A stretch of DNA of 64,000 bases from Candidatus Heimdallarchaeum aukensis (GTDB taxonomy: Archaea > Asgardarchaeota > Heimdallarchaeia > Heimdallarchaeales > Heimdallarchaeaceae), in contig CP084166.1 in assembly GCA_021513695.1 (NCBI GenBank), forward strand, positions 1,920,001 to 1,984,000. Direction: 5' to 3'. Within the stretch, counting starts at the first letter, position 1; each line of letters starts with the position of its first letter. The notes below the pieces were generated by a model. That model was given only the letters and a program-made list of their open reading frames with translations. It ran no database searches and was not told the origin of the DNA. Of the stretch, positions 8,929 to 39,953 are shown piece after piece. The position numbers and the translations under genes were made by a program.

Positions 8929-9054
8929 TTTAGGCCAAAAAAAAATTTTGGTAGTACAGAAAAAGCGTGACACTTGGAGTGTGCGTAAAAGTTAATTCAA
9001 GTTTTAAAAAGCGAAAAAGGTAATAACGACCGTACGAAAATCGTCTGAAAAAGA

Positions 9055-10531
<1,477 letters not shown>

Positions 10532-17496: not shown

Positions 17497-18117
17497 ATGT
17501 TTCTTTCTCCTGACCTTTCTTACCTTGTTGGTGCCTTACGTGACGGTTCTGTTTACTATTATTCTCGGAATAGGTCTTACTATACTCTTTTTTATCAAAA
17601 GTATCGTTCTTGGCTTGTTCACTCTATTGGTAAGCGTATAACTAGATTATTTGGTTTAAACTATTCTATTGACGAATATAAGCGCGGTCATTATCGTCTT
17701 CGCATTTCAAGCAAGCGCTTGTATTCTCTCTGGATTGACCAATTTGGTTTTCCTCGTGAGGGTGAGACTCAGTTACACTGGGATGTTCCTCGTCTTATTT
17801 TAGATAGCGATCTTCTTACTCAGTCTTACTTTCTCCGAGCTTTTTTTGACACTGAGGGTGATGTTTCTCCTTCATCTAGTTCTACTTATTATCTTGGTTT
17901 AAGTCAAAAGAATACTACTGTTTTATATCAACTTAAATCTCTTCTTTCTTCTTTCGATATTAAAACTTCCTCCATTCATTTAGCTGATAAAAAGTCTAAT
18001 ACTTACAGGTTTAGTATTGTTGGCAAGGAAGAAATTTTCAAATTTAGGGACAAGATAGGTTCTGAGCACCCTGTTAAGAAAGAAAAAATTGACCAAATTC
18101 TTCTTTCCAGCGACTAA
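17497..18117 (+). CDS. free-standing LAGLIDADG homing endonuclease (two-motif)
   Basis: Motif 1 LSYLVGALRDGSV and motif 2 YFLRAFFDTEGDVS. 206 aa. Strongly T-rich codon usage (tct, ctt, cgt, ttt) unlike neighbouring genes. Confidence 0.75.
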   Translation: MFLSPDLSYLVGALRDGSVYYYSRNRSYYTLFYQKYRSWLVHSIGKRITRLFGLNYSIDEYKRGHYRLRISSKRLYSLWIDQFGFPREGETQLHWDVPRLILDSDLLTQSYFLRAFFDTEGDVSPSSSSTYYLGLSQKNTTVLYQLKSLLSSFDIKTSSIHLADKKSNTYRFSIVGKEEIFKFRDKIGSEHPVKKEKIDQILLSSD

Positions 18118-18619: not shown

Positions 18620-18715
18620 GACCCTGTAGCTCAGCAGGATAGAGCGCTGGCCTTCTAATCTCAGTTGAGAGAAGCTAGTCAGCGGTCGACGGTTCGAATC
18701 CGCCCAGGGTCGCCA
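18620..18715 (+). tRNA. tRNA-Arg (anticodon TCT) with a 19-nt intron after the anticodon loop (about 18659..18677), CCA encoded
   Basis: Acceptor stem gaccctg/cagggtc; D stem gctc/gagc; anticodon stem ctggc/gtcag with loop cttctaa; T loop ttcgaat. One A-C mismatch in the T stem lowers confidence. Confidence 0.55.
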
Positions 18716-23196: not shown

Positions 23197-23595
23197 TTAT
23201 TCTTCGTCAATTTCTACATAGGATAAAATATCTGCAATCTTTGGTGCATGGCTAGATAGTACCGCTATCGCTGTTTTAAATTCTTCAATATCGCTTGTTC
23301 CACCAATTAAGTGAAAATCTCCAATAGATTTGATAATCAACAGCCCGTTTTTTCCTCGTACCATAACATCATTAATAGGTGAAAAATTTAGACGTTCTAA
23401 TGCCAATCTAGCTGCAGCAACAAGTGCTGCTCCAATAGCTGATAATTCTGTAGAATTAGCTTTTTTATCTCCTGCATAAAAAGCCACCCTATCACCTGTT
23501 GCAGTTAAGACCGCAAGAGCTTCTAATTTAGCTTGTTGTGTAATTTCTTTTAGTTCTTTAGCTAAAGCATAGGCAATTTTTCTTTCTAGTTTCAT
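23197..23595 (-). CDS. Roadblock/LC7 (MglB-like) domain protein
   Basis: 132 aa with an alpha-beta-alpha pattern and a length typical of Roadblock/LC7. Confidence 0.55.
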   Translation of the reverse strand: MKLERKIAYALAKELKEITQQAKLEALAVLTATGDRVAFYAGDKKANSTELSAIGAALVAAARLALERLNFSPINDVMVRGKNGLLIIKSIGDFHLIGGTSDIEEFKTAIAVLSSHAPKIADILSYVEIDEE

Positions 23596-31376: not shown

Positions 31377-32135
31377 TTATTTTTTGATTAATATTTTTTT
31401 ATCGATAGGATATAAAGTGAACCTATCTGGATTCTCTTTAACAATTTTAAACAGAATAGGTTCAATAAAAGATGCGGGAATATCAACCTCTGTTGAAATT
31501 TCGTCGAATGATATTTCTAGGGAGCTTTGGCTTTGTTCTTCAATTATCTGAATTACCAACTGGAAGGTTTGTTGCTCTGAAAGGAATATGGAATTACTTT
31601 TTATTGCTCCTTTAACTTCATTATCATTTAAAAGGGACTTGGCAAGTTTAAGAATGATTTCTTCATCCAAACCAAGCTCATCAGACAGATTCTTAAGAGA
31701 GAACTCTTCTTCACATTTCATTAAATTGTCTTTTAGGAGAGAGTAAACATAATTATAAGAGTAATAGAAGGTATGACCCAAAAAACCTTTTCCAAATTTT
31801 TGAAGTACAGAAGACAACAATTTCTCACTTATAGGCCATTGTTTTTTTAGATTTTGTATATCAAATTTACCTGTTTGCTTAAGCTTTTGTTCTATTTCTA
31901 CCATCAATTTTTCCTCAAGTGAAAAAAAGTATTTTTTCTTGGGTAAGAAAATACCAGAGATTAAACTTTCTGCTAGTAATCTATTTACTATATCAACTCT
32001 TTGATTATATGCTAGCTTTGTTTCTATTTTAGCTAAATTAGCGTATCTCTTTTCATCTAATATCTTGTAAAATTTTTCAATGAAATCTTTCTCTTTACTT
32101 ACAAACAGTGAACGTAAGAAACCAATTAATTTCAT
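31377..32135 (-). CDS. hypothetical protein
   Basis: 252 aa; no family recognised. Confidence 0.4.
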   Translation of the reverse strand: MKLIGFLRSLFVSKEKDFIEKFYKILDEKRYANLAKIETKLAYNQRVDIVNRLLAESLISGIFLPKKKYFFSLEEKLMVEIEQKLKQTGKFDIQNLKKQWPISEKLLSSVLQKFGKGFLGHTFYYSYNYVYSLLKDNLMKCEEEFSLKNLSDELGLDEEIILKLAKSLLNDNEVKGAIKSNSIFLSEQQTFQLVIQIIEEQSQSSLEISFDEISTEVDIPASFIEPILFKIVKENPDRFTLYPIDKKILIKK

Positions 32136-32203
32136 TTATACAAACCTTCCTTTTCATCTCAAAGATTTTTTTGGCCTTTATATAATTTTCATATGTATAG
32201 TAA

Positions 32204-33136
32204 TTGATAATAATGGAAAACATAGATAGAATCTCTTCAGGAATTAATGGAATAGATAAATTGCTCTATGGAGGATTTATAAAAAACTCGATCAATTCTA
32301 TTGTTGGGAGTAGTGGAACTGGAAAAACAACTTTTGCATTAGCATACCTACAACAAGGAATAATGGCAGGAGACGATGTTTTATATTTGTCATTTGAAGA
32401 AGAACCGAAGAAGTTAATATCAGAAGGAAAATCTCTCGGTATTAATCTTGAAGAAAAGCACGAAAACATAAGTGAAGTCATTCATTTAGTAGAAAGTGAG
32501 AAAATAGTAGAGTTTATGACAGAGATATTACCTGCACTTGCAAAAAAACTTAAAACTCAACAAGTTAAGCACACAAGAATTGTATTAGATCCTTTAACCC
32601 CAATTCTTTGGGAATTCACATCAGAAAGAGAGCAAAGAAGAGTTTTGACAAAAGTCTATAATTACTTAAGCTCTTTAGGAACAGTATTACAAACAGTAGA
32701 AGAACCGAATGCATTTGGGCAAACAGATATTGGTGCAAGTGAGACAAGAGTGCCAATTTACTTATCAGATACTGTTATCCACATCCAAAACTTAGGTTTA
32801 GGTGGAAAGTACAACCGAACTTGTAAAGTAATAAAATCACGGAAGACTGCACATTTAGAAGGAATTTACCCATTAAGATTTAACTATGGAACAGGAATTG
32901 AAATTGAAACAGGGGTTGAACATGAAACATCTTTTAACGCATACTTAGTGGAAAGAAAAAAAGAAATTTTAGAAAAATTGAAACTATGGTCTAAATCTAA
33001 TGATAAAAAACAGCGTGCAATAGCTGAAATTGGGATTGATCTAATAAAAAAACCAAATAGGAAAAATCAAGAGACAACTTACGAGATAATAAAATTACTT
33101 GCAGATAGTGGTATAGTTCAAGAGGTAAAAAGATGA
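32204..33136 (+). CDS. KaiC/RadA-like RecA-superfamily ATPase
   Basis: Walker A GSSGTGKTTFAL and a KaiC-like architecture. Confidence 0.6.
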   Translation: MIIMENIDRISSGINGIDKLLYGGFIKNSINSIVGSSGTGKTTFALAYLQQGIMAGDDVLYLSFEEEPKKLISEGKSLGINLEEKHENISEVIHLVESEKIVEFMTEILPALAKKLKTQQVKHTRIVLDPLTPILWEFTSEREQRRVLTKVYNYLSSLGTVLQTVEEPNAFGQTDIGASETRVPIYLSDTVIHIQNLGLGGKYNRTCKVIKSRKTAHLEGIYPLRFNYGTGIEIETGVEHETSFNAYLVERKKEILEKLKLWSKSNDKKQRAIAEIGIDLIKKPNRKNQETTYEIIKLLADSGIVQEVKR

Positions 33137-33492
33137 GTTCTATTAATAGAATAAAATCTGAATTAGAAGATTTACTTGAATTAGAAGATGTAGAAGCAGT
33201 GGTATTGTTTAGAATCGACGGAAGTGTAATTGAATCATCATTTGACAATAATTACACAAGCAGAAAAATAAGAGTGTTACAATGGTGTAAAGATAATATC
33301 CCAAGAGTTTCACAAGAAATGAGAGGGAATAACCTTCAAAAAGTCACTTATGAGCTTTCTGACACATGTATTCTATTTTTTGCTATAGGAAAAATTGGAA
33401 TATTGACAACGTTAGCGAACAATACTGCAAATTTGAGTCTATTAGCTGTAGAAACAAAAAGAAAAGCTAGTATAATTGAGAACTATATGTGA
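33133..33492 (+). CDS. Roadblock/LC7 (MglB-like) domain protein
   Basis: 119 aa. The start overlaps the upstream stop (ATGA). Confidence 0.55.
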   Translation: MSSINRIKSELEDLLELEDVEAVVLFRIDGSVIESSFDNNYTSRKIRVLQWCKDNIPRVSQEMRGNNLQKVTYELSDTCILFFAIGKIGILTTLANNTANLSLLAVETKRKASIIENYM

Positions 33493-33501
33493 GGGGTTTT
33501 T

Positions 33502-34809
33502 TTGCAAGTAAATTCAGGAATAGTGAGTAATCGCTCTCTCAAAAAAGTAGTAAAAGGGTTAATTAATGATGTAATTTTTGAAATTAAAGGCATACCTGAT
33601 TTCTTACTAATAGCTTTTACATCAAAATATAAGCGATCAGACTATAAAAAAGCACTAGAATTAATAACACAAGAAACAGGAATAAAAAATTTAATTGGAG
33701 GGACATTTCCAACCATAGGAGTCCAAAATGAAATTCCAACAACTCAAGGAGGGGCAGCGTTTACTTTCAAGGGAAACGAAATAAAAGTTCAAAGACCAGT
33801 CATCTACAAAAATATTAGAACAAAGAAAAAGAAGTTTATCAGTGAGTTTCCAAGAATCTACAATTCTATAAAAGCAAAATCAAAAATATCTTTTGTCCTT
33901 TCTACGGGACCAAAACTTCAACCAAATGCGATGGAACAGCTAAAATTACTTGATAGTTATCCTGCAATAAAATATCAAAACATGTTCAATGTACTTGGTT
34001 CAGGGTTGGAATGGTTCTTAGGAAAACAAGGTCTAGGAACTGGAAGTTATATAGATGAATTATTAAATTATTTAGCAATAAATAATGTTTCAGACTTAAT
34101 TGGTGGTGCAACTTTTGATATTGATCTACAAGACAACTATCAGTTTGTAAATAATTTCATTCATAGCAATTCTTTAGTAGGCACCAGTTTCTCATCCGAT
34201 ACGATTAAATTCGGACATAGTTGGGCCTTTGATAAATCAGAAAAGACTAGAGAATACTCTATCACTCATAAATTGAAGAGTGGATATATCCAGAAAATAA
34301 ACGGAGAAAGAGCAAATAACCAGCTTCTACAAATAATGGATCTCCCGAGTAACATATACAATGAATTTTTTGAGAGATTTTCTTACGCAAACGCACTTTA
34401 TCTTTCAGGAATTAAAGAAGAAGATGGCGACTATCATCCATTTATGACAGCAAATCATCCAAAGCTGAAAGGAGTTGTTTCTACCCTACCTCCGAGTAAA
34501 ATAACTAAAAAACCTATAAAAGCAGAGCTGTTCACACAGTCAGGATTGGGAATACAAAGATCAGCTTATGAGTGTGCAAATAAAGCAGTAAAAGAAATTA
34601 TTAATCCAAAATTCGGAATTTTCATCAATTGTGCAAATAGGTTATTGATTGCAGGAGACAAGATTGCTGAAGAAAATAAGAAACTTGCAGAAAGGTTAGG
34701 AGAAGATGTGCCATTCATCACTTTATATTCTGGTTGTGAATTCTCAATTTTCAATAAAAAACCAATGTATACAACTGTTTCTATCCATGGACTCGTAGCT
34801 GGAGAATAA
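33502..34809 (+). CDS. hypothetical protein (operon partner of a small GTPase)
   Basis: 435 aa; no family recognised with confidence. Confidence 0.45.
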   Translation: MQVNSGIVSNRSLKKVVKGLINDVIFEIKGIPDFLLIAFTSKYKRSDYKKALELITQETGIKNLIGGTFPTIGVQNEIPTTQGGAAFTFKGNEIKVQRPVIYKNIRTKKKKFISEFPRIYNSIKAKSKISFVLSTGPKLQPNAMEQLKLLDSYPAIKYQNMFNVLGSGLEWFLGKQGLGTGSYIDELLNYLAINNVSDLIGGATFDIDLQDNYQFVNNFIHSNSLVGTSFSSDTIKFGHSWAFDKSEKTREYSITHKLKSGYIQKINGERANNQLLQIMDLPSNIYNEFFERFSYANALYLSGIKEEDGDYHPFMTANHPKLKGVVSTLPPSKITKKPIKAELFTQSGLGIQRSAYECANKAVKEIINPKFGIFINCANRLLIAGDKIAEENKKLAERLGEDVPFITLYSGCEFSIFNKKPMYTTVSIHGLVAGE

Positions 34810-34851
34810 AAAATTGTGGTGTTTTAAATAGTTAAAGTAGTTGACTTAACA

Positions 34852-35439
34852 ATGATCTCGGAAAATTGGAAAACAAAAAAAACTCTGAAAATTGCAATAT
34901 TGGGTGAAGGTTCTGTAGGAAAGACAACAATATCAAAAAAATATTCTGAAGACTTATCTGAAACAGAAAAAATTACAATGACAAAAGGAGTCGACATTGC
35001 GGTAAAGAATCTTATTCATAAATCTACGCCCATTGCTTTACAAATTTGGGATTTTGCGGGTCAAAAGCAGTTTCGATTTATGATTGATATTTTCCTAAGA
35101 GGAGTAAAAGGAATCGTATATGTCTATGACGTAAACGATATAGAAACATTATACCTGCTTTATGAATTTGTAGAAATTGTGCGAAATTATTTTAAAGAAA
35201 ATAATATCTCCCAGGTCCCAGAAGTACTTGTAGGAAACAAAATTGATATTGGTGATGCAGAAGTTTCAATTGAAGATATATACAGCTTTATGAATACTCA
35301 CAACATTGAAAAGCATTTTCTCGTTAGCGGAATGTATGGAGATAATGTTTATCCATTATTTGATTATTTAATAGAAAAAATAGTCTTTGATGAGTCTAAG
35401 GAGCATATCTCTACAATAAATCAATATTCACTTAAATAA
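34852..35439 (+). CDS. Ras-superfamily small GTPase
   Basis: G1 GEGSVGKTT, G3 WDFAGQ, G4 GNKID. 195 aa. Confidence 0.75.
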   Translation: MISENWKTKKTLKIAILGEGSVGKTTISKKYSEDLSETEKITMTKGVDIAVKNLIHKSTPIALQIWDFAGQKQFRFMIDIFLRGVKGIVYVYDVNDIETLYLLYEFVEIVRNYFKENNISQVPEVLVGNKIDIGDAEVSIEDIYSFMNTHNIEKHFLVSGMYGDNVYPLFDYLIEKIVFDESKEHISTINQYSLK

Positions 35440-35494: not shown

Positions 35495-35815
35495 ATGGAA
35501 AAATTTCAACAATTCATTAATAAAACTCTTGTCTGTTCTAAATGTAATAGAAAATTAGACTTCAAAATCGATAGGAAACAACTTGAAGAATTAAGGAATA
35601 GCCAATTATTCAACTTTGTTATAATGCATGCCAACGATCATACTTTAGTAATTTCGGTTGATGGAAGGGGGGAAATTAGAAGATCAAGAATTGCAACCTT
35701 GAATGCTATTGAAGAAGAGAAAAAAAGTAATAATGCTTTTCAAGATATCCAAATTATTGAAGAAAGTAATAACTTACGAGAAGCTTTTGTAAACTGGTTT
35801 GAAAAAAAGAAGTAA
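35495..35815 (+). CDS. hypothetical protein
   Basis: 106 aa, preceded by the SD agggag. Confidence 0.4.
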   Translation: MEKFQQFINKTLVCSKCNRKLDFKIDRKQLEELRNSQLFNFVIMHANDHTLVISVDGRGEIRRSRIATLNAIEEEKKSNNAFQDIQIIEESNNLREAFVNWFEKKK

Positions 35816-39859: not shown

Positions 39860-39953
39860 AATAATAAACGAGATTTCTCTATATAAAGTTAAAGAATTAT
39901 AACATAGCTGGTATTTTTGGAGTTTAAATATTTTCGTAGTATATCTCTAATGA

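What the first reader, a model, noticed from the sequence alone, without database searches (positions are those of the whole stretch)
32204..35439. Operon coupling a KaiC-like ATPase, a Roadblock/LC7 protein, an unknown 435-aa protein and a Ras-like small GTPase
Roadblock/LC7 proteins act as GAP or GEF partners of small GTPases (MglA-MglB in bacteria, Rag-Ragulator in eukaryotes). Here a Roadblock gene is translationally coupled to a KaiC-like ATPase. Two genes downstream is a GTPase with intact G1, G3 (DxxGQ) and G4 (NKxD) motifs.

A second Roadblock gene sits at 23197..23595. This looks like a GTPase polarity or signalling module of a kind poorly characterised in archaea.
Basis: partly seen in the sequence, partly recalled or inferred. 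Interest (0 to 1): 0.5.

Follow-up and report, generated by a model that had tools for sequence, protein, structure and literature searches.

The report
KaiC–Roadblock–FIST–GTPase signalling cassette, Heimdallarchaeia

Summary
Four co-directional genes lie at 32204-35439 in Ca. Heimdallarchaeum aukensis. The KaiC and Roadblock genes overlap by ATGA, and the GTPase has intact G1-G5 motifs.

Three corrections:
- The "unknown" 435-aa protein is a stand-alone FIST_N/FIST_C sensor-type protein.
- The conserved unit also includes a fifth gene (35495-35815, a CxxC...HxxxH protein with no recognisable fold) and a divergent tandem winged-helix gene (31377-32135).
- The second Roadblock gene is on the minus strand and is not part of the unit.

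Gene order is identical, wherever the contig reaches, in 26 Heimdallarchaeaceae species genomes and 14 of 15 metagenome contigs (the fifteenth holds only a FIST fragment).

More distant Heimdallarchaeia keep only KaiC-Roadblock-FIST (four lineages). Two others carry a small GTPase next to that triad, once in a different position. So the triad is the core and the GTPase is a recurrent add-on.

Conserved BRE/TATA-like boxes precede KaiC and the GTPase, which suggests two transcription units.

Most likely this is a cytoplasmic signalling cassette: FIST senses, a KaiC ATPase with a Roadblock adaptor transduces, and the Rab-like GTPase is the output. The mechanism is inferred, not shown. It is not an MglA/MglB module. 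I found no description of it in the searchable literature.

The parts
31377..32135 (-). Divergently transcribed 252-aa protein with tandem winged-helix region resembling UFL1 (E3 UFM1 ligase) WH repeats
   Evidence: Pfam PF09743 E 2e-8, 34.7 bits, above the cut-off of 23.2. Found directly upstream of KaiC in 24 of 26 genome loci; in L007 it is on the same strand, so the linkage survives a change of orientation.
32177..32184 (+). P1: TATA-like box TTTATATA upstream of KaiC. In most relatives the box is TTGTGGAGTTTATTTA.
   Evidence: It sits at the same distance from the KaiC ATG in 29 aligned loci, and 26 of them carry [T/G]TG[T/C]GG[A/T]GTTTATTTA. No Shine-Dalgarno-like sequence precedes the KaiC ATG. 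Promoter function is inferred, not shown.
32213..33136 (+). Single-domain KaiC-like RecA-superfamily ATPase (307 aa from the ATG; an alternative TTG start is at 32204) with a ~75-aa C-terminal tail
   Evidence: Pfam KaiC E 4e-34. Best solved relatives are KaiC proteins (8zn5, E 2e-37). Walker A, the SFEE glutamates and Walker B are present and conserved in 26 sequences.
33133..33492 (+). 119-aa Roadblock/LC7-fold protein (precomputed Pfam family PF27410 'AF0774'), translationally coupled to KaiC (ATGA overlap)
   Evidence: An SD-like GAGGT lies 8 nt upstream of its ATG.
33502..34809 (+). 435-aa stand-alone FIST_N + FIST_C protein (TTG start)
   Evidence: Pfam hits. 34 orthologue clusters, all Heimdallarchaeia. 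It belongs to a narrow, divergent FIST clade: only 192 representatives at E<=1e-3 among 1.8 billion. Invariant residues include C358, C377 and H429.
34809..34831 (+). P2: conserved box AAAAATTGTGGTGTTTTAAATAG at the FIST/GTPase junction, a probable internal BRE/TATA promoter
   Evidence: Nearly invariant at nucleotide level in about 40 loci while the flanking FIST codons vary. In the Heimdallarchaeum genus it lies after the FIST stop codon, in non-coding DNA. It is the only exact TTGTGGNGTTT match in the 64-kb window. It resembles the box upstream of KaiC in relatives.
34852..35439 (+). 195-aa Rab/Ras-like small GTPase with G1-G5 intact and no C-terminal prenylation cysteine
   Evidence: The motifs are conserved in 26 orthologues.
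35495..35815 (+). 106-aa protein with invariant C14, C17, H45 and H49 (CxxC...HxxxH, putative zinc site), a five-strand beta domain, a disordered linker and a C-terminal helix; fifth gene of the unit

Best explanation
This is a cytoplasmic signal-transduction cassette specific to Heimdallarchaeia.

Its core is three co-translated proteins:
- a single-domain KaiC-like RecA-type ATPase, likely active;
- an MglB-like Roadblock protein, coupled to the ATPase by an overlapping stop/start;
- a stand-alone FIST_N/FIST_C protein of the kind that acts as a ligand sensor controlling a partner enzyme in bacteria.

In Heimdallarchaeaceae a second unit follows, probably with its own promoter. [quoted passage not shown]

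Proposed mechanism (inferred): FIST binds a small ligand and alters the ATPase or assembly state of the KaiC-Roadblock complex. The Roadblock dimer, the classical platform for small GTPases, then sets the nucleotide state of the Rab-like GTPase as a GAP or GEF platform. The GTPase and the zinc protein carry the output. The divergent tandem winged-helix protein may be a regulator or a scaffold.

Shown: gene content, folds, motifs, conservation, and the modular gain and loss of the GTPase.

Inferred: every physical interaction, the ligand, the direction of signal flow and the promoters.
For: - Conservation: the order KaiC-Roadblock-FIST-GTPase-orf106 is identical wherever the contig reaches, in 26 species genomes and 14 of 15 metagenome contigs.
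- Spacing: gaps are -4 to about 25 nt in most loci.
- Core triad: it recurs in distant lineages whose FIST is only about 20-30% identical (L030, L033, L034, L036).
- GTPase link: a small GTPase is again adjacent to the triad in L031/L032 (same order) and in L056 (upstream of KaiC). Linkage that survives rearrangement argues for shared function.
- FIST-Roadblock link: it persists even without KaiC (L035 has two Roadblock-domain genes).
- Components: the ATPase motifs are intact and conserved, the Roadblock fold resembles MglB and LAMTOR, and the GTPase G motifs are intact.
- Precedent for FIST: the stand-alone FIST-FIST_C protein NosP is an auxiliary sensor that controls a partner kinase (PMC8846402).
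- Precedent for KaiC and Roadblock: KaiC-family ATPases are proposed archaeal signalling hubs, and both KaiC and Roadblock genes were noted as putative regulators in archaeal type IV pilus loci (PMC5847659, PMC4858521).
- Expression signals: SD-like sequences precede the internal genes (Roadblock, FIST, orf106) but not KaiC or the GTPase. Conserved BRE/TATA-like boxes precede exactly those two.
Against: - No interaction, transcript or ligand data exist.
- Four lineages lack an adjacent GTPase, so the Roadblock may act only on the KaiC ATPase, and the GTPase may be regulated in some other way.
- The canonical KaiC phosphorylation sites are not conserved, so a KaiC-style phospho-switch is not supported.
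- The FIST_C match of the window protein is below Pfam's cut-off.
- Conservation of the P2 box could partly reflect coding of the FIST C-terminus (..KNVVF*) in most species, or a T-run terminator. Similar boxes also occur upstream of unrelated genes.
Confidence: 0.5

Rival explanations
1. An MglA/MglB-type polarity or motility switch. The Roadblock protein is the dedicated GAP of the neighbouring GTPase, and KaiC and FIST are accessory.
For: The Roadblock model's best structural matches are MglB proteins. A small GTPase sits in the same cluster in three lineages.
Against: - The Roadblock gene is coupled to KaiC, not to the GTPase, and the FIST gene lies between them.
- Four lineages keep KaiC-Roadblock-FIST with no adjacent GTPase.
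- The GTPase is Rab-like with a canonical DFAGQ G3 motif, and its best solved relatives are Rab18, Rab3 and Rab1, not MglA.
- There are no motility, pilus or archaellum genes nearby.
Confidence: 0.12
2. A RecA/RadA-paralogue system acting in DNA repair or replication, with the KaiC-like protein as a recombination mediator.
For: The ATPase belongs to the RecA superfamily and weakly matches RadA, RadB and the Sulfolobus paralogue SSO2452. RPA genes lie within 1-5 kb in Heimdallarchaeaceae, and RadA is directly upstream in L030.
Against: It matches KaiC far better (E 2e-37) than RadA or RadB (E 1e-5 to 1e-3). The constant partners are a Roadblock protein and a FIST protein, both signalling-type. 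The position and orientation of the RPA genes vary, and they are absent from the distant loci.
Confidence: 0.07
3. A KaiC-based timer or oscillator in the cyanobacterial sense, with the Roadblock protein replacing KaiB as the reader of KaiC state.
For: Closest solved relatives are genuine KaiC proteins. A small partner protein is translationally coupled to it. A thioredoxin-fold gene follows FIST in L034.
Against: It has a single domain, not CI+CII. The positions aligned with S431/T432 are not Ser/Thr. No KaiA or KaiB is present. The L034 neighbour is an ordinary thioredoxin by Pfam.
Confidence: 0.06
4. Two independent units that are merely syntenic: KaiC-Roadblock-FIST, and GTPase-orf106, with no functional connection.
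For: A separate promoter-like box precedes the GTPase. The triad exists without the GTPase in four lineages.
Against: The GTPase is adjacent to the triad in three deeply separated lineages and in two different arrangements. An orf106 homologue accompanies the triad in L034 without any GTPase. The juxtaposition never breaks in about 40 loci while the outer flanks rearrange.
Confidence: 0.15

Closest known systems
KaiC-family ATPases as archaeal signal-transduction hubs (Makarova, Galperin & Koonin 2017, cited in PMC5847659; the paper itself could not be read here)
   Same: A single- or multi-domain KaiC-like ATPase is encoded next to small adaptor proteins and sensory domains. The active-site motifs are intact.
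   Different: The partner set here is Roadblock + stand-alone FIST + Rab-like GTPase + a CCHH protein. I did not find that combination in any searchable paper. It is restricted to Heimdallarchaeia.
MglA-MglB (bacterial Ras-like GTPase and its Roadblock GAP)
   Same: A Roadblock-fold protein with its best structural matches to MglB, encoded in one cluster with a small GTPase.
   Different: The GTPase is Rab-like, not MglA-like. The two genes are not adjacent. The Roadblock gene is coupled to an ATPase. The GTPase is dispensable for the conserved core.
NosP-NahK type auxiliary sensing (stand-alone FIST-FIST_C protein controlling a partner kinase; PMC8846402)
   Same: A stand-alone FIST_N+FIST_C protein is encoded with the NTP-using signalling enzyme it presumably controls.
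   Different: The partner is a KaiC-like ATPase rather than a histidine kinase. This FIST clade is very divergent. Haem or NO binding is untested.
Asgard LAMTOR1-like Roadblock + Rab-like GTPase + DENN operon (Liu et al., bioRxiv 10.1101/2020.10.19.343400)
   Same: A conserved Asgard gene neighbourhood that joins a Roadblock-superfamily protein and a Rab-like GTPase.
   Different: There is no DENN protein here. KaiC, FIST and a CCHH protein take its place. Whether the GTPase families are the same was not tested.
Rag GTPase-Ragulator nutrient sensing (eukaryotes)
   Same: Roadblock platform, small GTPase, an associated ATPase and a putative metabolite sensor.
   Different: The GTPase has no C-terminal Roadblock domain, and its Gtr1_RagA match is much weaker than its Ras/Rab match. 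There is no homology between KaiC and the V-ATPase, or between FIST and the eukaryotic sensors. This is an analogy only.

Membership tests
KaiC family (PF06745) | RecA-like core with Walker A, a catalytic Glu pair and Walker B | tested here: met
   GSSGTGKT, SFEE and IVLDP are present. Pfam E 4e-34. Conserved in 26 orthologues.
KaiC family (circadian KaiC proper) | Duplicated CI+CII domains and the S431/T432 phosphorylation sites | tested here: not met
   One domain (residues 4-231) plus a tail. The stretch aligned with SHISTITD reads RVPIYLSD. NCBIfam KaiC models score far below their cut-offs.
KaiC family (circadian KaiC proper) | KaiA and KaiB partners encoded nearby | tested here: not met
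   None in the window cluster or in any related locus.
Roadblock/LC7 (MglB-like) | alpha-beta-beta-alpha-beta-beta-beta(-alpha) fold | tested here: met
   AF2 pLDDT 92.8 with that topology. Foldseek probability 1.0 to MglB, Asgard Roadblocks and LAMTOR.
Roadblock/LC7 (PF03259) | Sequence match above Pfam's gathering score | tested here: not met
   16.6 bits against a cut-off of 23. The precomputed assignment is to PF27410 'AF0774'. A profile of orthologues hits 7f8m at E 3e-5.
Roadblock/LC7 (MglB-like) | Homodimer with GAP or GEF-platform activity on a small GTPase | not testable with these tools
   No multimer prediction or biochemistry was available.
MglA/MglB module | MglA-type GTPase encoded adjacent to mglB | tested here: not met
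   The GTPase has canonical DFAGQ, its best relatives are Rabs, and it is separated from the Roadblock gene by FIST.
Ras-superfamily small GTPase (Rab-like) | G1 GxxxxGK[ST], G3 DxxGQ, G4 NKxD and G5 motifs | tested here: met
   GEGSVGKT, DFAGQ, NKID and SGM. Pfam Ras E 1e-26. Rab18 E 3.6e-22.
Eukaryotic Rab | C-terminal cysteine prenylation motif | tested here: not met
   The protein ends ...STINQYSLK with no cysteine.
FIST (FIST_N + FIST_C) | Both Pfam domains in N-to-C order | tested here: met
   FIST_N 30.6 bits, above the 23.2 cut-off. FIST_C E 4e-4, below the cut-off in the window protein, but PF10442 is recorded for many orthologues.
FIST (NosP-like sensors) | Ligand (haem/NO or amino acid) binding | not testable with these tools
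   Only conserved residues (invariant C358, C377, H429) could be listed. No solved FIST structure was found by sequence.
Rag-Ragulator | Rag-type GTPase with a C-terminal Roadblock domain, forming heterodimers | tested here: not met
   The protein is 195 aa and G-domain only. Gtr1_RagA E 3.5e-8 against Ras 1e-26.
Operon / conserved gene neighbourhood | Same strand, short gaps, and order conserved across species while the flanks change | tested here: met
   Co-transcription itself was not tested.

The most novel reading that the evidence does not exclude
The cassette is an archaeal counterpart, by analogy or perhaps ancestry, of eukaryotic Roadblock-platform nutrient signalling of the Rag-Ragulator type. 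[quoted passage not shown] That would make it the first genomically defined sensor-regulator-GTPase circuit in Asgard archaea.
Probability: 0.12. Interest if true: 0.85.

Novelty: new variant of a known kind. Interest (0 to 1): 0.58.

Why it matters
Asgard genomes encode dozens of small GTPases and Roadblock or longin proteins. Tran et al. 2024 (PMC10933270) note that these genes are generally not in operons, so cognate GTPase-regulator pairs cannot be read from the genome.

This cassette is an exception. It is conserved in every Heimdallarchaeaceae genome found here, and it names a specific Roadblock protein, a sensor, an ATPase and a small zinc protein as candidate partners of one Rab-like GTPase. 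The origin of eukaryote-type GTPase regulation therefore becomes directly testable with five small soluble proteins.

It also adds a new partner set (Roadblock plus FIST) to the proposed KaiC signalling hubs of archaea, and it defines a fold-orphan protein family (orf106).

Tried and rejected
**Literature**
- Makarova et al. 2017, the key KaiC-hub paper, is not held in the library. Prior description of KaiC-Roadblock pairs in other archaea therefore cannot be excluded.
- Searches for KaiC with Roadblock, MglB or FIST, for "FIST domain" with archaea, and for AF0774 / PF27410 found nothing relevant.

**orf106**
- No Pfam, NCBIfam or meaningful PADLOC match.
- The PDB profile search gave only noise (Cas2 at E 0.016, EnvZ).

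**Other proteins**
- KaiC C-terminal tail: no family match.
- FIST: no solved relative by sequence.
- Defence system: rejected. There was only a weak mad8 P-loop match.

**Searches that were limited or failed**
- The metagenome scan with a diverse FIST alignment failed for lack of a conserved stretch. The repeat with closer sequences recovered only Heimdallarchaeaceae-type loci.
- The taxonomic placement of the distant MAG loci L030-L033, L036 and L056 could not be established.

**Promoter box**
- I first read TTGTGGNGTTT as a module-specific operator. That was weakened by similar boxes upstream of an rpL1 operon, a RadB-like gene and an ABC transporter.
Full report
**Source and anatomy**

The window is from Candidatus Heimdallarchaeum aukensis, an Asgard archaeon with a closed 3.08-Mb genome. 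The FIST protein is 100% identical to locus tag K9W45_08750, and the same contig is found in Logan run SRR15988954. GC content is about 30%.

Five co-directional genes lie on the + strand:
- **KaiC-like ATPase**, 32213 (ATG; a TTG is at 32204) to 33136. Pfam KaiC E 4e-34.
- **119-aa protein**, 33133-33492. Its ATG overlaps the KaiC stop codon (ATGA).
- **435-aa protein**, 33502-34809. It matches FIST_N above Pfam's cut-off and FIST_C below it.
- **195-aa small GTPase**, 34852-35439.
- **106-aa ORF**, 35495-35815.

EF-1alpha converges on the other strand 11 nt further on. A 252-aa gene (31377-32135, minus strand) diverges from KaiC and matches the winged-helix region of UFL1 (PF09743, E 2e-8).

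**The individual proteins**

*KaiC-like ATPase.* It has one RecA-like domain (residues 4-231) with Walker A GSSGTGKT, the SFEE glutamate pair and Walker B IVLDP. All three are conserved in 26 sequences. A roughly 75-aa tail follows, with no family match. Its best solved relatives are genuine KaiC proteins (E 2e-37). RadA and RadB are far weaker. The positions aligned with the KaiC phosphosites are not Ser/Thr.

*119-aa protein.* It is a true Roadblock protein despite a sub-threshold Pfam score:
- A profile of orthologues hits the Thorarchaeota Roadblock 7f8m (E 3e-5).
- The AF2 model (pLDDT 92.8) has alpha-beta-beta-alpha-beta-beta-beta-alpha topology.
- Foldseek returns MglB, Asgard Roadblocks and LAMTOR subunits at probability 1.0.
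- The precomputed Pfam family is PF27410 "AF0774".

*GTPase.* It has all G motifs (GEGSVGKT, DFAGQ, NKID, SGM). It is closest to Rab18, Rab3, Rab1 and a Thorarchaeota Rab. It has no C-terminal cysteine.

*106-aa protein.* C14, C17, H45 and H49 are invariant. The model shows a five-strand beta domain, a disordered linker and a terminal helix. It has no detectable structural or family relative.

**Conservation in Heimdallarchaeaceae**

A scan of one genome per GTDB species with a FIST alignment found 26 loci, all Heimdallarchaeota MAGs, with FIST 43-89% identical. I searched their ORFs with the window proteins. The order KaiC-Roadblock-FIST-GTPase-orf106 is identical in every locus as far as the contig reaches.
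- 23 loci are complete, and 3 are cut by contig ends.
- The winged-helix gene lies directly upstream in 24 of 26. In L007 it is on the same strand.
- The outer flanks rearrange. EF-1alpha is downstream only in a few loci, and the RPA pair moves and inverts.
- The KaiC/Roadblock overlap is 4 nt in 23 of 25 loci and 1 nt in the other two. Most other gaps are about 25 nt or less.

Of fifteen further metagenome contigs, fourteen show the same order as far as they reach. The fifteenth (L051) holds only a FIST fragment.

**Beyond the family**

An exhaustive HMM search with the FIST profile found only 192 representatives at E<=1e-3 among 1.8 billion proteins. This is a narrow, divergent FIST clade. 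I examined the contexts of the distant members with HMMs built from the Heimdallarchaeaceae orthologues.

| Locus | Arrangement | Adjacent GTPase |
|---|---|---|
| L031/L032 (GC 0.48) | KaiC-Roadblock-FIST-GTPase-orf106-like (all five genes) | yes |
| L056 | GTPase-KaiC-Roadblock-FIST | yes, upstream of KaiC |
| L030 | KaiC-Roadblock-FIST | no |
| L033 | KaiC-Roadblock-FIST, then a weak longin-like gene | no |
| L034 (Hodarchaeales-type) | orf106-like-KaiC-Roadblock-FIST-thioredoxin | no |
| L036 | KaiC-Roadblock-FIST | no |
| L035 | two Roadblock-domain genes and a gelsolin-domain gene, then FIST; no KaiC | no |

More remote FIST paralogues stand alone (L037, from Heimdallarchaeota LC_3; L038; L039).

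So the stable core is KaiC-Roadblock-FIST. The small GTPase joins it in three deep lineages and in two arrangements. The orf106 family follows the core even without the GTPase.

**Expression signals**

All of these are sequence inferences.
- Upstream of KaiC, 26 of 29 aligned loci carry [T/G]TG[T/C]GG[A/T]GTTTATTTA, about 30-45 nt before the ATG. In the window the homologous box is TTGGCCTTTATATA, with the TATA at 32177-32184.
- At the FIST/GTPase junction, AAAAA(A/T)TGTGGTG(T/C)TTTAAAT is nearly invariant at nucleotide level in about 40 loci. The adjacent FIST codons vary freely.
- In most species that box encodes the FIST C-terminus (KNVVF*). In the Heimdallarchaeum genus FIST stops five codons earlier, and the box persists in non-coding DNA (window 34809-34831). 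This argues for constraint on the DNA itself.
- It is the only exact TTGTGGNGTTT match in the window.
- The 16S rRNA 3' end is ...CACCUCCU. SD-like GAGGT, GAGGGGT and GGGAG precede the Roadblock, FIST and orf106 genes. None precedes KaiC or the GTPase.

This pattern fits two units, kaiC-roadblock-fist and GTPase-orf106, each starting with a leaderless or short-leader gene.

Two caveats apply. Related boxes also occur upstream of an rpL1 operon, a RadB-like gene and an ABC transporter, so the box may be a general strong promoter type rather than a dedicated operator. In some species the junction also forms a short hairpin followed by a T-run.

**Interpretation**

Several lines point to a sensory cassette:
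- FIST-FIST_C proteins are known as stand-alone auxiliary sensors that control a partner kinase, as NosP controls NahK. Their ligand chemistry is still poorly defined (PMC8846402).
- KaiC-family ATPases have been proposed as archaeal signalling hubs (cited in PMC5847659).
- KaiC and Roadblock genes were each noted as putative regulators in archaeal type IV pilus loci (PMC4858521).
- Roadblock dimers are the classical platforms for small GTPases, as in MglB and Ragulator.

The most economical reading is that FIST senses a ligand, a KaiC-Roadblock complex transduces the signal, and in Heimdallarchaeaceae a Rab-like GTPase with a zinc-protein partner is the output.

It is not an MglA/MglB module. 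The GTPase is Rab-like, the Roadblock gene is coupled to the ATPase, and the GTPase is dispensable for the core. It is not a circadian KaiC system either: there is a single domain, no phosphosites and no KaiA or KaiB. A role in DNA repair is unlikely given the partner proteins.

**Novelty**

Tran et al. state that small GTPase genes of the cultured Asgard archaeon MK-D1 are generally not in operons with Roadblock or longin genes, so cognate pairs cannot be predicted from the genome (PMC10933270). Liu et al. describe a different Asgard neighbourhood, LAMTOR1-like Roadblock + Rab-like GTPase + DENN, and their text mentions neither KaiC nor FIST. No searchable paper links KaiC, Roadblock and FIST.

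The one paper most likely to have touched KaiC-Roadblock pairs (Makarova et al. 2017) could not be read. I therefore rate the cassette as a new variant of a known kind. The components and the general logic are familiar. The combination, its strict conservation in the closest relatives of eukaryotes, and the orphan fifth protein are new as far as I could check.

Noticed in passing
window 23197-23595 (-): A second Roadblock-like gene (132 aa). Pfam Robl_LC7 E 6.5e-4, below the cut-off. Weak match to the Prometheoarchaeum Roadblock3 structure 9jue (E 0.006). Orthologues in L005-L007 match it at phmmer E 5e-75 to 1e-72. No detectable similarity to the operon's Roadblock. It lies next to the PolD small subunit and an SDR gene, not a GTPase.
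   Followed up: partly
window 31377-32135 (-): A 252-aa protein matching the winged-helix region of the eukaryotic E3 UFM1 ligase UFL1 (PF09743, above the cut-off). It is conserved next to the KaiC cluster in 24 of 26 genomes. It could be a eukaryote-like signature protein or simply a tandem wHTH regulator.
   Followed up: partly
window 9054-10531 (+): A complete archaeal 16S rRNA gene (1336 bits) with no 23S rRNA gene next to it. Protein-coding ORFs follow from 10591. It explains the GC peak at 8-10 kb.
   Followed up: no
window 18620-18715 (+): A 96-nt tRNA gene for which ARAGORN reports a four-base anticodon 'tcta' and no amino acid. It probably contains an intron.
   Followed up: no
window 17497-18117 (+): A 206-aa ORF containing 'YLVGALRDGS', which from memory resembles a LAGLIDADG homing-endonuclease motif. 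It lies between a 1171-aa gene and the odd tRNA. Not checked against any library.
   Followed up: no
L002 and L003 (Logan assemblies SRR15988958 and SRR15988959): In these assemblies of the same organism, KaiC is split (252 + 52 aa), orf106 is truncated to 68 aa and RPA is split (507 + 197 aa), while the GTPase is identical. These are either assembly frameshifts or strain variants with disrupted genes.
   Followed up: no
L035 6028-9317: A distant FIST gene is preceded by two Roadblock-domain genes (131 and 309 aa) and a gelsolin-domain gene (201 aa), with no KaiC. This may link FIST/Roadblock signalling to actin regulation.
   Followed up: partly
L033 7001-7474; L034 9526-9951: In triad-only lineages the gene after FIST is a weak longin-like protein (L033; Longin E 0.015, Fuz_longin_1 E 0.021) or a thioredoxin (L034). 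The output module appears to be exchangeable.
   Followed up: partly
L014 4112-5130; L010 12514-12528 (-); window 39915-39930: TTGTGGNG/TTTGGAG + TTTAWWTA boxes like those before KaiC and the GTPase also precede a small membrane protein + RadB-like ATPase pair, the rpL1-L10-L12 operon and an ABC transporter. This may be the Heimdallarchaeaceae BRE/TATA consensus for a class of promoters.
   Followed up: partly
L037 (Heimdallarchaeota LC_3) and L036: Both loci have ribosomal protein S8-L6 genes a few kb downstream of FIST. L036 keeps KaiC-Roadblock upstream of FIST, while LC_3 has unrelated genes there. This suggests loss of the ATPase-Roadblock pair in LC_3.
   Followed up: no
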